Source: Promethearchaeia archaeon (GTDB lineage Archaea; Asgardarchaeota; Lokiarchaeia; Sigyniarchaeales; SOKP01). Taken from it: 61,892 nucleotides of DNA. The stretch is taken from positions 1 through 61,892 of the forward strand of contig JAHQWH010000016.1 of the NCBI GenBank assembly GCA_029856105.1, in the 5' to 3' direction. The notes beneath the pieces are model-generated. The model saw only the letters and a program-made list of their open reading frames with translations, had not been told where the DNA came from and made no database searches. Shown here in pieces: positions 6,317 through 14,967 of this stretch. Every line of letters begins with the position of its first letter. Within the stretch, counting starts at the first letter, position 1. The position numbers and the translations under genes are program-made.

Positions 6317-6398
6317 TGTTATTTTATTTTTTTTTACTTATTGTAAGTTATATTTAAAAATATTTTTCTTTTAAATAGAATCGTTAGGAATAAAGTGT

Positions 6399-9300
6399 AT
6401 GATCGAAGATGATATCAATTCGCACCAATGCAGATTTTGCAACTCGTCATTCTCAGTCGAAATTCTCAAAAAGATCGAAGATAATAGAGATGATGTTTAC
6501 TGCGAAAATTGCGGAGATTTAATTAAAAGAGTTCAAAGTAAATATAATTTTAATCCTATTAAAATTATTGAAAACGCCTCTAATACCAATACTAAAGATA
6601 CACCTACTAAGCCTCAAAAAGATTTAGAAAGCAACCCTGACGCTTTACATTACCCAATTGGCCGAATTTTTTACGACACTGATTTCCCACTAATTTTTAA
6701 GAGCAATTTCATTATTGTATTTTCTCGCCTTACTTATTTTCATGCGCTACATTTAGAGAGTAAAGGGCAAATCGAACTTGGGGGTTTGGAAGTACCTGAA
6801 AATGCCATTAACAACCTCTTTATGTCTATAAGGCATATTCAGGAGAAGCGAATTAAGTCTGAATTCCTAAATAACCTCCATGAAATTTCTAAGGAGGAAT
6901 TTGAACGCAATCTAAAACAATTACAGGCTAAAATTCAATCCGACCATCAGTATCGGGAAGATTTTATCGTTTACTCCCGGTGGTTAATAAGTAAGGCGTA
7001 TCTTCTTATCTCTAACGAATCCAATAAGGACAACCTTTCAAAGTTTGATCTAACTATCTATAAGGATATAAAAAATCAAAAAGAATTATTCGAGAGTAAA
7101 CTAGAACAATTTGCAAATAAACCTACAAACACAACATTCGTGAAGAGAAGAAGTGAATCTAAGAGGATTAAAGAAGCGAGAATTAACTTTGAACGGAATA
7201 TACTTAATGAATTAAAGAGAATAGCTATTAACTATGAAGATCATGAATTATTATATAAAATAGCAAAGAAGATTGTAAAAAATGCAATTTCACAACCTAA
7301 TCAACTTTCAATTGACGATTTACCTAGTGGTCGGAAAATAAATCCCAAATACACGGCTTCAGCTTTTATATATTATGGATTAAGGCACACTGATTACAAC
7401 GATAAGTATGAAAAATACAAGCTATATGGAGTTATGGAATATATTAAGGAGTTTTATTCAGGAAATAAGACTATGTTAAGAGCTTTACAAAGTATAATTC
7501 CGTTAATATATAGGTTTCTTTTAGTAGAAAAGAGTAGTATTCTTTACTTTCCAAAATCAAAAAAGTATAACATCGAAGAAACGGTAAAGGAAAGGAGACA
7601 GAATCTTTGGATAGAAAATCGTTCAAAAATTTTTAAAAATGATCTAGAGAAACTTATAAATGAATTTAGTAAAGTTTTTGCTAAACAAACTCTTATTAAA
7701 AAAATCACTAAAGATCTTTTAAAAGATGCCATATCTGAGCCTAATTCTTTTTCAAAACAAGAAATTCTTGAATCACAGATTAGGTTAACAACACCAAAAT
7801 ATTATTGTGTTGCGCTTTTATTTTTAGCCTATAATCATGAAGATTACAATAAAGAAAAACTAGGAATTTCAAACTTCTCAAGAAAGTATTTTCCAAGCTA
7901 TATAAAGGAAAATAATTCGACCATTCCTTTTCTTTATAGATTTATTTCACCTGAAGTCAAGGGAAAAATTAACTATATTCCAATCATAAGGTATAAAGAT
8001 AAATACAAAAAATTTGATGAATTAAGACTTTGGGAAATAGTTAAAGAATTTCTACAAGCCTTTATTGATACAGGGATGAAAAAATATTTGAATCAGGCAA
8101 AAAGTCTTTTTTCCTCATCAAAAGAGGGTGGATTTGATCTACAAAATTTAGAAAGTAAGAATCCAAAATTTTTAGCTGCTACTTTAGTTTATTACAGCTT
8201 AATTCTCAGTGATAATTTTAATTTCATCTTAAAAGAGAGCTTCTTAAATCATATGAGGAATGCCGAATTTACAATTGGAAATAAGGTTTATAGATTAATT
8301 TCAGATTTTAATCCATATGTTCTTAAACATCTTGAAAAGCTTCGAATAAAAAAAAACAAAGAATTCGATGAAAATGAAATAGAAACAGATATAAACACTA
8401 CAGAGTTAAATACAGAAAAATCAAAAATAGTAATTAGTATCAAAAATCGATCCAATATCAAAAGAGAGTTCTTTCTTCATAAATTATTAGAAATTAGAGA
8501 AAAACATAAACAAAATGATAGAAACGATAATGTAATACTATGTGATTTAATTTTAAAATCTCTAGAATTCTACTAAGATTTTAATGCTTTTACTAAAGAT
8601 GCTCAATTTCTAAGATCATCTGGTTCTCCTAAACAAATTTTACTTCGGTTGAGTAAGAATAATTTATTGGGTAAAAAACAAGATTTAGATAGATTTATTG
8701 TAAAATATTTAAATTTTATAGATAGACTTGATACTAGTTTAGAAATTAAGAAATCATATACATCCCTTTTAACACATTATTATGAAGAAAGAAAAAATAG
8801 ATTCGATGAACATAACAAAGAAAAAAAAGTTAGGGAGAAACAGCGTAGGGCTAAATATGGTGATCTCTTTTTCTCACATGCTGTTAGGGTAGAAAGATTT
8901 CTCATAATGCTTGGATTTAGTCCTTTTGACGGGTATGATATTTGGGAAAATAGAGTAATAATTGATGATAAAATTCGTTTATATGCTAATTTTCATCATA
9001 TTAAGTATGTACCAGAAGAGAGATCAAAAAGAGAATTAGTATTCATCCCCCAAAAACCTCCTAAAAAATATCTAAAAAATACAGATAAATTTTTGTCGCA
9101 TTCAATGATTGCTGGAATGGAGGGGAATTTAAAAAGAAATGACATCTCTAATATTGTAAGACATAAAATAGAAAGAGAACTTAAGTCAATTCAAAATGTA
9201 ATCGAATTCAATTCAAAGATTTTAGAAAAAGCTGTTATAACTTTTAATCCAGAACTAATACTTAAATTAAAAGGATGGTCAAAGGAATGTATGAAGAGAG

Positions 9301-9461
9301 CAATTGATAGGATAAATGATCGAGAATTTTCTTGGGCAAAAGATGTTGAGAAAGGGGTCCCTACAGCCGGCGGTTATGAAAATGAAAGGATTGAACACAG
9401 TGAAGCTAAAAGGGTTATTCAAGAAATCTTAGATGAACGAGAAAGAAGAATTTTAGACTAG
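6399..9461 (+). pseudogene. Zn-ribbon / TFIIB-cyclin-like repeats / HNH-like protein interrupted by one in-frame TAA (8574-8576)
   Basis: ORFs 6399-8576 and 8649-9461 share a frame, with no other stop between them; N-terminal CRFC..CENC. Confidence 0.6.
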
Positions 9462-9696: not shown

Positions 9697-10255
9697 ATGA
9701 GTAAAACAAACAAAATCATTGTTAAGGCCCTTGTGACTGGAGGGAGAGAAAATTTATATTTTATAACTTTTCCCCTAATGCTTCAGGAGGGCCACCTATC
9801 GGCCCCGCTGTAGGTCCTACTGGCATAAAATGGAAATTGAATCGATTTCCTATGCAAACATCAAGGACGTAGTGGACGCCGTTAACGAAAGGACCATGCT
9901 TTTTAAGGGTTTAACGGTACCCATTAGAATCGAATGCGATCCTGCGACAAAACAGTTTGAGATATTCGTAGAGACGCCAAGTACAGCTTCACTACTTTTA
10001 AAAGAATTAGGAGCTGAAAAAGGGAGTTCGAATAGTTCTGAGGAGAAAATTGGAGATTTAACTCTTGAACAGGTAGTTAATGTTGCTACCGCTAAAAAGG
10101 ACATCTTTTTAGATAAAACCTTCAAAACTGCTGTAAAGACCGTAATTGGGACGGTTTTGTCAATTGGAGCCACAATAGAAGGTGAGGACCCGCGAGTAAT
10201 TCAGAAAAAGATTGAAAATGGAGAATATGCCGACATGATAAAGGGGGAGATGTAA
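9697..10255 (+). CDS. rpl11: 50S ribosomal protein uL11, split by two BHB introns; exons 9697-9746, 9779-9828 and 9858-10255
   Basis: Spliced product MSKTNKIIVKALVTGGSASGGPPIGPAVGPTGINIKDVVDAVNERT..., 165 aa; first gene of the L11-L1-L10-L12 operon. Confidence 0.93.
9747..9778 (+). other. putative mRNA intron 1 of rpl11 (32 nt, relaxed BHB)
   Basis: Central helix AGGG/CCCT, bulges AGA and AAT, inner stem GAAAA/TTTTC; removal restores frame. Confidence 0.88.
9829..9857 (+). other. putative mRNA intron 2 of rpl11 (29 nt, BHB)
   Basis: Central helix GCAT/ATGC, bulges AAA and AAA, inner stem GGAAAT/ATTTCC, exon stems TG/CA and GTCCT/AGGAC. Confidence 0.9.
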
Positions 10256-10258
10256 AAA

Positions 10259-10987
10259 ATGAAAATTGATGATAAGCTATTAAAAAAATCGTTAGATGCT
10301 GCAATTGAACATTCGACTATTAAAAAGGAAGGCTTTAAAGATAAAATCAGGAAATTTGACGAATCAATTGACCTCATTATGAATTTGAAAGACATTAACC
10401 TCAAAGATCCTAAACAGAGGATCGATAAGGAAATAATACTACCTAATAACATAATAACTAAAGATAGGCCTAGCATCTGCGTAATTGCATCAGACGAGAT
10501 ACTTCTTGAAGCTAAGAATCTTGGACTTGAAACGATGGATAAAGACGGTTTAATCAAACTAAATAACGAAGAAAAAAAGTATAAGAAAAAATTTGTAAAG
10601 AAATACAATTTCTTCGTAGTAGAAGACAAAATGATGCCAAATGTAGCTCGATATTTAGCGAGATTCCTTGGACCACTAGGTAAAATGCCGAAACCTTTCC
10701 CTAGCGGATATGGGATTATTTCCAATCCGAACGATTTAAACGTGGCAATTGAGAGATATTTAAAAGTTATTCGAATTCAATTAAAGAAGCAACCACTTAT
10801 TCAAGTGAAAGTAGGAAAAAAATCTATGGACAAGGATAAAATCTTTGAAAACATGAAAGCTATCGTTGAGTATATTGCTGATCAGATGCCTCATAAATAT
10901 AACAACATTAAATCTATATTTTTAAAAACTACAATGGGACATCCAATAAAAATTGATGAACAGTTTTTGAAGGGTATAGAGGTGTAA
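10259..10987 (+). CDS. rpl1: 50S ribosomal protein uL1
   Basis: RKFDESIDL, LGPLGKMPKP and KTTMG motifs; operon position. Confidence 0.95.
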   Translation: MKIDDKLLKKSLDAAIEHSTIKKEGFKDKIRKFDESIDLIMNLKDINLKDPKQRIDKEIILPNNIITKDRPSICVIASDEILLEAKNLGLETMDKDGLIKLNNEEKKYKKKFVKKYNFFVVEDKMMPNVARYLARFLGPLGKMPKPFPSGYGIISNPNDLNVAIERYLKVIRIQLKKQPLIQVKVGKKSMDKDKIFENMKAIVEYIADQMPHKYNNIKSIFLKTTMGHPIKIDEQFLKGIEV

Positions 10988-10991
10988 AAAA

Positions 10992-11957
10992 GTGATCAGA
11001 AAAAAAGAAATACATCAATGGAAATTGGATGAAGTCGTTCATTTAGTTGATTTGTTTAAAAACTATAAAACTGTTGCTGTAATAGAAGTTGCGAGATTAA
11101 ACGACAAACAAATTCAAGAGATGCGAAAAATCTTAAGAGGGAAAGCAGTAATAAGAATGTCAAAAAAGAAGCTTCAACTAAGAGCCGTAGAACAGTATAA
11201 AAACGAGTCTAAAAAAAAAAACTTAGAAGAACTCGCCGAAAAAATTCCAGGACAATCCGCATTATGTTTTATCAACATAGATATCTTTGAATTAATGAAA
11301 ATATTTAATGAAAATGAATGGATGGTCTCTGCTAAACCTAACGAGATAACACCAGTAGATATTTGGGTTACTGAGGGGGACACAGGATTGCCCACGGGAC
11401 AAGTTATCAGTGAATTGAACATGACGCTCCGACTTCCAACTAAAATCCAGAACGATACGATTTGGGTTAGAGAAGATACGCGAACGCACTCAGCGGGAGA
11501 TTACGTTGATGTAAAACAGGCAGCAGTCTTAAAGAAGTTAGGTGTAGCTCCAATTAAATCGCTTATTAAAATTTTTTACGCGTGGAGCGACGGTGAAATC
11601 ATTCCTGAGGAAATTCTATATATGGATATGGAACAATTCCAACAAGAGCTTGCATCTGCCTACTTCGGCGCACGAAGCTTAGCTTTAGAACTAGGTATTG
11701 TCGATAACGAAACGATTGAACCATTAATCCAAAAAGCACACCGAGAGGCTCTTGGAATCCTTTTTGAATTACCTGTTTATTTTGACGATATGAGGGATGA
11801 ATATATCCGAAAAGCCGTATCAAATGCTAGCACTATTAAGGCTATAGTACTTGGAGAAGACCTTCAGATTCCAACTAAGAAAGAAGAAGACAAAAAAGAA
11901 AAACCTGAAGAAGATGAGGAAGAAGAAGTTGGAATTGGAGGCTTATTTGGTAATTAA
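10992..11957 (+). CDS. rpl10: 50S ribosomal protein uL10/P0 (GTG start)
   Basis: QIQEMRKILRG and GDTGLPTG motifs; acidic tail ending GIGGLFG. Confidence 0.95.
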   Translation: MIRKKEIHQWKLDEVVHLVDLFKNYKTVAVIEVARLNDKQIQEMRKILRGKAVIRMSKKKLQLRAVEQYKNESKKKNLEELAEKIPGQSALCFINIDIFELMKIFNENEWMVSAKPNEITPVDIWVTEGDTGLPTGQVISELNMTLRLPTKIQNDTIWVREDTRTHSAGDYVDVKQAAVLKKLGVAPIKSLIKIFYAWSDGEIIPEEILYMDMEQFQQELASAYFGARSLALELGIVDNETIEPLIQKAHREALGILFELPVYFDDMRDEYIRKAVSNASTIKAIVLGEDLQIPTKKEEDKKEKPEEDEEEEVGIGGLFGN

Positions 11958-14864: not shown

Positions 14865-14967
14865 CGCAGACAGAGGGATTCGAACCCTCGGATGCTTTCA
14901 CACACCGGCTTTCTGGGACCGTTTTTCCGCTCCAAGCCGGCGCCGTACCAGGCTAGGCAATGTCTGC
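14865..14967 (-). tRNA. tRNA-Ser(GGA) with a 19-nt canonical 37/38 intron (14911-14929)
   Basis: Acceptor GCAGACA/TGTCTGC, anticodon stem CCGGC/GCCGG, long variable arm, TTCGAAT T-loop, discriminator G. Confidence 0.9.

What the first reader, a model, noticed from the sequence alone, without database searches (positions are those of the whole stretch)
9741..9779. rpl11 intron 1: 32-nt AT-rich hairpin with a relaxed BHB motif, inside a Ser codon
Seen: AGGG(9741-44) pairs with CCCT(9773-76); bulges are AGA(9745-47) and AAT(9777-79); the inner stem is GAAAA/TTTTC plus a TATA/TATA arm. Cuts at AG|A and AA|T rebuild AGT (Ser) in GG-S-A. The outer exon helix is weak. Inference: this needs a broad-specificity endonuclease and may be the slower, rate-limiting splice.
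Basis: partly seen in the sequence, partly recalled or inferred. Interest (0 to 1): 0.8.

Follow-up and report, generated by a model that had tools for sequence, protein, structure and literature searches.

The report
tRNA-type mini-intron in Asgard rpl11 mRNA
The only ribosomal protein L11 gene of this Asgard (Lokiarchaeia-type) archaeon is broken by a 32-base hairpin shaped like an archaeal tRNA intron, so its mRNA very probably has to be cut and rejoined by the tRNA-splicing enzymes; the papers I could search report this inside the coding sequence of only one other archaeal gene (cbf5).

Summary
Bases 9747-9778 interrupt rpl11 inside a Ser codon and sit in a bulge-helix-bulge-like fold at the stated coordinates.

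Cutting by the standard rule (after the 2nd base of each bulge) rebuilds AGT. Together with removal of intron 2, this gives a 165-aa L11 that is 93% identical, without gaps, to intron-free homologues.

The bare motif is common by chance in this AT-rich DNA. The weight is comparative:
- 11 of 50 distinct Lokiarchaeial rpl11 loci carry an insert at exactly this site (28-38 nt, five unrelated sequence families).
- All 11 keep the 4-bp helix, the AGA/AGU and AAU bulges, and an inner stem with compensatory changes.
- The other 39 loci read GG-(S/A/K)-A there.
- Five independent assemblies carry the identical sequence.

The genome encodes a two-subunit EndA with the Crenarchaea-type specificity loop, and RtcB.

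The adjacent outer helix is indeed weak.

No spliced RNA was found. The "rate-limiting" idea is untestable here.

This scan has already found similar mRNA mini-introns in other Lokiarchaeial genomes. The papers I could search report only cbf5.

The parts
9697..9746 (+). rpl11 exon 1 (M-S-K-T-N-K-I-I-V-K-A-L-V-T-G-G plus the first two bases, AG, of the Ser codon)
   Evidence: The reading frame from ATG 9697 matches the N-terminus of 165-aa Lokiarchaeial L11 proteins.
9747..9778 (+). Intron 1, 32 nt, the finding. It breaks the frame; the unspliced reading stops at TAG 9811 after 38 codons.
   Evidence: The same site is occupied in 11 of 50 relatives and empty in 39.
9741..9744 (+). Central helix H, 5' strand (AGGG, exon 1). 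It pairs with 9773-9776.
   Evidence: Pair probability is 0.81-0.85. The helix is 100% paired in 11 alleles, with A-U / U-G / U-A covariation at the first pair.
9745..9747 (+). 5' bulge AGA; predicted cut after 9746
   Evidence: AGA or AGU in all 11 alleles. The cut rule (between 2nd and 3rd bulge residue) is as stated for cbf5 in PMC2738675.
9748..9772 (+). Inner helix h' (9748-52 / 9768-72) and apical arm (9754-58 / 9762-66) with a UUU loop
   Evidence: At least 3 terminal base pairs are present in all 11 alleles. They start with G-C, and the 2nd and 3rd pairs switch between A-U, U-A and G-U across families.
9773..9776 (+). Central helix H, 3' strand (CCCT, intron)
9777..9779 (+). 3' splice-site 'bulge' AAT; predicted cut after 9778. 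It lies in a 4 x 6 nt internal loop, not a clean 3-nt bulge.
   Evidence: AAU is invariant in the 11 alleles.
9726..9736 (+). 5' strand of the distal exon-exon helix (GGCCCTT 9726-32; TGA 9734-36)
   Evidence: Pair probability is above 0.99. Pairing is 9-10/10 in intron-bearing alleles and 2-8/10 in intron-free ones. 8 of 8 independent contrasts go the same way.
9783..9793 (+). 3' strand of the distal exon-exon helix (TCA 9783-85; GAGGGCC 9787-93)
9779..9828 (+). rpl11 exon 2 (third base of the Ser codon, then A-S-G-G-P-P-I-G-P-A-V-G-P-T-G-I and the first two bases of the Asn codon)
9829..9857 (+). Intron 2, 29 nt.
   Evidence: This site is occupied in about 11 relatives.
9858..10255 (+). rpl11 exon 3, including the stop codon
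   Evidence: Pfam Ribosomal_L11 1.4e-17 and Ribosomal_L11_N. This is the only match in the genome.

Best explanation
Bases 9747-9778 are an archaeal endonuclease-type (bulge-helix-bulge) intron in the pre-mRNA of the single rpl11 gene of a Lokiarchaeia-type Asgard archaeon.

Proposed fold of the transcript:
- Exon bases AGGG pair with intron bases CCCU, forming the 4-bp central helix.
- A 3-nt bulge (AGA) and the intron's own hairpin lie on one side.
- The 3' site (AA|U) lies in an internal loop on the other side.
- That loop is closed by a 10-bp exon-exon helix made from the Lys-Ala-Leu-Val-Thr and Ser-Gly-Gly-Pro codons.

Proposed reaction:
- RtcB joins the exons and recreates the Ser codon AGT.
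- With intron 2 also removed, the message encodes a normal 165-aa L11.

What is shown: the sequence, the fold, conservation and covariation of the fold, presence or absence at one exact site, the matching empty-site sequence, and the enzymes' genes.

What is inferred: that cutting and joining happen in the cell, and at these bonds.
For: 1. The gene is essential, single-copy and otherwise intact. There is one rpl11 match in a 92%-complete genome. Joining 9697-9746, 9779-9828 and 9858-10255 gives 498 nt. The 165-aa product is 92.7% identical, ungapped, to P0001 and P0003.
2. It is not an assembly error. Five other assemblies (2 JGI, 2 Logan, 1 ENA) match the window at 9697-9860 with 0 mismatches.
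3. 11 of 50 distinct Lokiarchaeial loci have an insert at exactly this site. Lengths are 28, 32, 36, 37 and 38 nt, so the frames differ, and the 36-nt form carries an in-frame TAA. The interiors fall into five unrelated sequence families.
4. All 11 keep H, both bulges, and an inner stem of at least 3 bp, with changes on both sides of pairs. 93.8% of cells are paired, against 43-62% when the partner strand is slid.
5. The junction is right. The 39 intron-free loci have Ser (22), Ala (14) or Lys (3) at this position. Only the BHB-rule cut gives Ser; other shifts give Asn or Arg. Two metagenome contigs carry the predicted empty-site sequence GGxGGGAG|TGCxTCAGGAGG.
6. The exon-exon helix is tied to intron presence. 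The distributions do not overlap, and 8 of 8 independent contrasts agree, p = 0.008.
7. The machinery is encoded: EndA alpha with the triad, R/W and loop K/R residues, a His-less second subunit, and RtcB at E = 9e-168 (residue roles from PMC3241643).
8. Published work places the (alpha-beta)2 EndA with this loop in Asgard archaea (PMC5829648). It also describes heavily interrupted Asgard tRNA genes (PMC11291895; bioRxiv 10.64898/2026.10.13.758758).
Against: - No spliced RNA, circular intron or cDNA was found for this or any intron-bearing allele.
- The 3' site is not in a clean 3-nt bulge.
- In this allele the free-RNA minimum-energy fold prefers a 1-nt bulge at the 5' site, by 1.0 kcal/mol.
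- The bare motif is common by chance.
- The contrasts use a tree of exon 3 + L1. If the intron and its flanks move together as one cassette, those contrasts are not fully independent.
Confidence: 0.85

Rival explanations
1. The insert is removed from the RNA, but not by the EndA/RtcB pathway or not at the predicted bonds. The agent would be another, unknown processing activity, or EndA acting on the alternative 1-nt-bulge register.
For: The window's own minimum-energy fold uses the other register. The 3' site is in a loop rather than a bulge. No biochemical data exist for any Asgard EndA.
Against: The alternative register cannot form in four of the five intron families. Only the BHB-rule junction gives a residue seen in relatives. 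Loop-type 3' sites are cut by EndA enzymes that carry the specificity loop (PMC3241643).
Confidence: 0.06
2. Ribosomes skip the insert (translational bypass or programmed frameshift), so no RNA splicing is needed.
For: GGAGGG occurs on both sides of the insert (9739-44 and 9786-91), which loosely resembles take-off and landing sites. cbf5 introns were once mistaken for frameshifts (PMC2738675).
Against: Hopping from one GGAGGG to the other would delete the conserved S-A-S residues. The insert lengths (28/32/36/37/38 nt) need different frame changes. What is conserved is a BHB-like RNA fold with covariation, not codons.
Confidence: 0.03
3. The gene is a pseudogene, a mis-assembly, or is expressed only as an N-terminally truncated L11 from ATG 9830. 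The insert is then a neutral insertion.
For: Gene callers annotate only 127-156-aa truncated products for such alleles.
Against: The sequence is identical in five further assemblies. It is the only rpl11 in the genome. The exons upstream of the insert are conserved, in frame once spliced, and code for the invariant N-terminal domain motif. The same architecture occurs in 11 species.
Confidence: 0.03

Closest known systems
cbf5 pre-mRNA intron of Crenarchaeota (Desulfurococcales, Sulfolobales; Watanabe 2002, Yokobori 2009 = PMC2738675)
   Same: Both are short introns inside a coding sequence with an unconventional BHB-like structure. The predicted cuts lie between the 2nd and 3rd bulge residues. 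The host has a hetero-oligomeric EndA. Distribution among relatives is patchy, with gain and loss.
   Different: The gene (rpl11), phylum (Asgard/Promethearchaeota) and sequence all differ. Here there are two introns in one gene, four alternative sites within 90 nt among relatives, and a distal exon-exon helix. cbf5 splicing was shown by cDNA and in vitro cleavage; this one was not.
Non-canonical (relaxed, HBh' / BHL) tRNA introns of Thermoproteota and Asgard archaea, cut by (alpha-beta)2 EndA with the Crenarchaea-specific loop (PMC3241643, PMC5829648, PMC11291895)
   Same: The motif type, size range (about 20-50 nt) and enzyme type are the same. The same genome has many interrupted tRNA genes.
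   Different: [quoted passage not shown]
BHB intron in the 5' UTR of Haloferax volcanii HVO_1309 (PMC7714728)
   Same: It is an mRNA substrate of the archaeal splicing endonuclease.
   Different: It lies in the untranslated leader, not the coding sequence. It is 46 nt long and is cut by an alpha'2-type EndA. That case was shown by circRNA-seq and in vitro cleavage.

Membership tests
Archaeal endonuclease-spliced (BHB) intron | 4-bp central helix between the two cleavage sites | tested here: met
   AGGG 9741-44 / CCCU 9773-76. The helix is 100% paired in 11 alleles, with one pair changing on both sides.
Archaeal endonuclease-spliced (BHB) intron | 3-nt bulge at the 5' site, flanked by H and an inner helix h' | tested here: met
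   AGA or AGU, followed by at least 3 bp, in all 11 alleles. In the window a 1-nt-bulge register is 1 kcal/mol more stable in isolation.
Archaeal endonuclease-spliced (BHB) intron | 3-nt bulge at the 3' site, flanked by H and an adjacent outer helix h (strict hBHBh') | tested here: not met
   AAU is followed by G.G, G-C, U.U. The site lies in a 4 x 6 nt internal loop closed by a distal 10-bp helix. It therefore fits the relaxed HBh'/BHL class, not the strict motif.
Archaeal endonuclease-spliced (BHB) intron | Cuts after the 2nd bulge base give a functional product | tested here: met
   The cuts restore AGT (Ser) and, with intron 2 removed, a 165-aa L11. Other shifts give residues that no relative has.
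Archaeal endonuclease-spliced (BHB) intron | Host encodes an EndA able to cut relaxed motifs, and an RNA ligase | tested here: met
   By sequence only: alpha subunit with triad and specificity-loop K/R, a His-less second subunit, and RtcB.
Archaeal endonuclease-spliced (BHB) intron | Excision and exon ligation observed in RNA | not testable with these tools
   No transcript data were reachable. Searches for spliced contigs found only genomic intron-free alleles of other species.
Group I / group II self-splicing intron | Catalytic RNA core (hundreds of nt) recognisable by covariance models | tested here: not met
   The insert is 32 nt. The Rfam scan of the window at gathering threshold found only one tRNA.
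Programmed translational bypass / frameshift site | Fixed frame change or matched take-off and landing codons conserved among relatives | tested here: not met
   Insert lengths of 28-38 nt imply three different frame changes. It is the fold that is conserved, not the codons.

The most novel reading that the evidence does not exclude
The rpl11 mini-introns of Lokiarchaeia are mobile at the DNA level. Intron 1, together with about 100-180 nt of flanking exon, has been copied between species by gene conversion, a homing-like spread with no endonuclease gene in the intron. Gly/Pro-rich coding stretches (GGN pairs with CCN) are hot spots because they supply the G+C-rich complementary exon strands that the splicing motif needs in a 32% G+C genome. 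This would make an essential, highly expressed mRNA of the closest prokaryotic relatives of eukaryotes routinely dependent on splicing, with rapid intron turnover.
Probability: 0.4. Interest if true: 0.85.

Novelty: new member of a known kind. Interest (0 to 1): 0.74.

Why it matters
In the papers I could search, splicing of an archaeal coding sequence by the tRNA endonuclease is documented for one gene only, cbf5. A 2020 paper still calls cbf5 the only example, apart from its own 5' UTR case.

Here an essential ribosomal-protein mRNA of an Asgard archaeon needs two such splices. Its relatives show rapid gain and loss at four sites within 90 nt.

If splicing is confirmed on RNA, three things follow:
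- mRNA splicing would be a routine part of gene expression in the archaeal lineage nearest to eukaryotes.
- Gene callers would be shown to truncate such genes systematically (127-156-aa 'L11' entries).
- A compact natural substrate would be available for testing how the exon context, including a distal exon-exon clamp, defines an EndA site.

Tried and rejected
1. Spliced-transcript evidence.
- The protein search with exon 3 gave no hit above 93% identity.
- The full-length 165-aa hits I fetched (L113-L115) are genomic intron-free alleles of other species, with different codons at the junction.
- A scan of metagenome contigs for the exact spliced junction found two contigs. Both are genomic, with upstream intergenic DNA, and come from other species. 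They serve as 'empty site' examples, not as cDNA.
- Cluster members of the nearest proteins included the window's own truncated gene call, but no spliced form among those listed.

2. A second copy of the intron elsewhere in the genome, as a possible donor or tRNA origin. blastn-short found only 12-23-nt A+T-rich chance matches.

3. Rfam at gathering threshold found nothing at this locus.

4. The bare BHB pattern as evidence was rejected, because it is as common in shuffled sequence.

5. The full-length spliced protein was not sent to the exact-match look-up tools, because it has no reference and may not be typed. It was built and compared only inside scripts.

6. Default ARAGORN found no tRNA in the window, although Rfam and ARAGORN with its intron option did.

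Full report
**Where we are.** The window is contig C16 of a 3.66-Mb, 31.9% G+C, 238-contig assembly. Its closest relatives carry NCBI titles naming Promethearchaeota/Promethearchaeia, that is Lokiarchaeia-type Asgard archaea. The finding lies at the 5' end of the rpl11-rpl1-rpl10 cluster. Pfam recognises L11 in 9857-10255, L1 in 10259-10987 and L10/P0 in 10980-11957.

**The observation.**
- Reading from ATG 9697 gives M-S-K-T-N-K-I-I-V-K-A-L-V-T-G-G, then runs into unrelated sequence and stops at TAG 9811.
- The conserved continuation A-S-G-G-P-P-I-G-P-A-V-G-P-T-G-I is in a second frame, and the rest of L11 is in a third.
- The 71 nt around the insert fold at -27.5 kcal/mol (z = -4.35).
- AGGG 9741-44 pairs with CCCU 9773-76. 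An inner stem and a small apical arm follow.
- Outside these lies a 7-bp G+C-rich helix (9726-32 with 9787-93) plus UGA/UCA (9734-36 with 9783-85).
- Between that distal helix and the central helix lies a 4 x 6 nt internal loop, which contains the 3' site AA|U.

One caveat applies: in this allele the ensemble prefers a 1-nt bulge at the 5' site (G9746-C9772, probability 0.72) over the 3-nt bulge (0.15), a difference of 1.0 kcal/mol.

**Is it more than chance?** The motif alone is not. A 4-bp helix with 3-nt offsets and a 3-bp inner stem occurs 2688 times on the + strand of the window, against about 2370 in shuffled sequence. With a G+C-rich central helix the counts are 39 against about 14. The case rests on context and comparison.

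**Context.** rpl11 is found once in this 92%-complete genome. Joining 9697-9746, 9779-9828 and 9858-10255 gives 498 nt. The 165-aa protein aligns without gaps at 92.7% identity to 165-aa L11 proteins of intron-free relatives. The 164 nt from the start codon through both inserts are identical in five other assemblies from JGI, Logan and ENA, so this is not an assembly artefact.

**Comparison.** Two searches gave 50 distinct Lokiarchaeial rpl11 loci.
- 39 loci have no insert here and read G-G-(S/A/K)-A-S-G-G: Ser 22, Ala 14, Lys 3.
- 11 loci have an insert at exactly this position. Lengths are 28, 32, 36, 37 or 38 nt, and the interiors fall into five families with no resemblance to each other.
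- The lengths imply different frame changes, and the 36-nt form has an in-frame TAA. This rules out frameshifting or read-through.
- All 11 keep the 4-bp central helix. It is AGGG/CCCU, UGGG/CCCG, UGGG/CCCA or AGGG/CUCU, so the wobble base of a Gly codon covaries with an intron base.
- All 11 keep a 5' bulge of AGA or AGU and a 3' AAU.
- All 11 keep an inner stem of at least 3 bp. It starts with G-C, and its next pairs switch among A-U, U-A and G-U.
- On the alignment, 93.8% of cells are paired, against 43-62% when the 3' strand is slid by 1-3 columns.
- Only the 3-nt-bulge register can form in all families, which settles the register question raised.

**The junction.** Cutting after the second base of each bulge is the rule stated for cbf5 (PMC2738675). 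It gives AG|T = Ser. Moving the cut by 1 or 2 nt gives Asn or Arg, which no relative has. Two metagenome contigs of other species carry the predicted empty site within otherwise similar flanks.

**The exon clamp.** The ten distal exon-exon pairs are formed at 9-10 positions in all 11 intron-bearing alleles and at 2-8 in the 39 intron-free ones. On a tree of exon 3 + rpl1, 8 of 8 independent contrasts go the same way (p = 0.008). The strands are built from Lys-Ala-Leu and Gly-Gly-Pro codons. I infer, but have not shown, that Gly/Pro-rich stretches are favoured intron sites in this A+T-rich genome because GGN and CCN codons are mutually complementary.

**The enzymes.** The genome has two EndA paralogues.
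- One aligns without gaps to the catalytic alpha subunit of Aeropyrum pernix EndA (3p1z_B, E = 3e-34). It keeps the equivalents of Y125, H133 and K164, of R157 and W183, and of K44 and R46 in the Crenarchaea-specific loop. In that enzyme the loop confers cleavage of non-canonical and loop-type sites (PMC3241643).
- The other lacks the catalytic His, as expected of a structural beta subunit.
- RtcB is present.

This agrees with the published assignment of an (alpha-beta)2 EndA with that loop to Asgard archaea (PMC5829648). It also agrees with their heavily interrupted tRNA genes. In this genome ARAGORN finds about 20 tRNAs, most of them with introns.

**What is not shown.** No spliced RNA was found. 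All full-length intron-free sequences I could fetch are genomic alleles of other species.

**Dynamics (beyond the finding).** Intron 1 needs 9 changes on a 49-tip tree and is no more clustered than shuffled labels.
- The 77 nt of intron plus flanks are 97-99% identical among the window, L079, L039 and L109, whose exon 3 is only 76-79% identical.
- Conversely, the window's closest relatives by exon 3 (L031, L080, L032; 94-95% protein identity over exon 3) lack intron 1. They also differ at many synonymous sites in just this patch.
- The gene is thus a mosaic, which points to transfer of an intron-bearing 5' cassette by recombination.
- Relatives also carry similar hairpin inserts at three other sites in the same 90 nt: P-P-I|G-P, A-V|G-P, and G-I|N-I (the window's intron 2).

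**Comparison with what is known.** The mechanism proposed is that of the cbf5 pre-mRNA intron of Crenarchaeota. The motif class is that of relaxed tRNA introns. A 2020 paper still names cbf5 as the only other BHB intron in an archaeal mRNA, besides its own 5' UTR case (PMC7714728). My searches for Asgard or Lokiarchaeota together with BHB or protein-coding introns found no report of mRNA introns. Notes of this scan describe similar mini-introns in other genes of other Lokiarchaeial genomes. I took those as leads only.

**Verdict.** This is a real feature. It is very probably an EndA/RtcB-spliced mRNA intron: a new member of a kind known from one gene. It is unproven at the RNA level.

Noticed in passing
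Relatives' rpl11 loci: L031, L041, L081, L017 (site P-P-I|G-P); L048, L054, L057, L055, L056, L064 (site A-V|G-P); about 11 loci at G-I|N-I (window 9829-9857): Hairpin inserts of 28-36 nt occupy four different sites within about 90 nt of the rpl11 N-terminal domain across Lokiarchaeial species, in varying combinations (0 to 2 per gene). The folds show exon-exon helices around each hairpin.
   Followed up: partly
window 9697-9880, compared with L109, L039, L079, L031, L080, L032: rpl11 is a mosaic. Its 5' 180 nt, with both introns, are 92-100% identical to L109, whose downstream part is only 60-85% identical. Its 3' part is closest to L031/L080/L032, which lack intron 1 and differ at many synonymous sites around the empty site. 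This suggests gene conversion of an intron-bearing cassette.
   Followed up: partly
window 14865-14967 (-): A tRNA (Rfam 42.5 bits; ARAGORN with its intron option calls it tRNA-Ser GGA with a 19-nt intron). Default ARAGORN missed it. Genome-wide, only about 20 tRNAs are found, most with introns, so many are probably hidden by non-canonical introns.
   Followed up: no
window 6375-9461 (+): Two long open frames (733 and 294 codons) lie in the same frame, separated by a single stop at 8574-8576. Neither has a Pfam match. They lie directly upstream of rpl11.
   Followed up: no
whole window, both strands: BHB-like patterns with a G+C-rich central helix are about 2-3 times more frequent than in shuffled sequence (39 and 28 against about 14). 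This may reflect further real introns or simply hairpins.
   Followed up: no
L045, L110, L038, L046, L048, L049, L054, L037 (record titles): Several records whose rpl11 falls inside this Lokiarchaeial genus-level clade are titled as Nanopelagicaceae bacterium, Odin-, Hod-, Thor- or Hermodarchaeota. One distant hit, L110, is titled Bacillota bacterium. The labels look unreliable, or the bins are contaminated.
   Followed up: no
proteins P0005, P0017, P0019, P0033, P0084, P0128 (public gene calls): Public annotations of intron-bearing rpl11 alleles are N-terminally truncated, or start inside an intron (127-156 aa, for example one that begins M-F-H-N-F-S-P-N-A-S-G-G). Automatic gene calling therefore systematically mis-annotates these genes.
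   Followed up: partly
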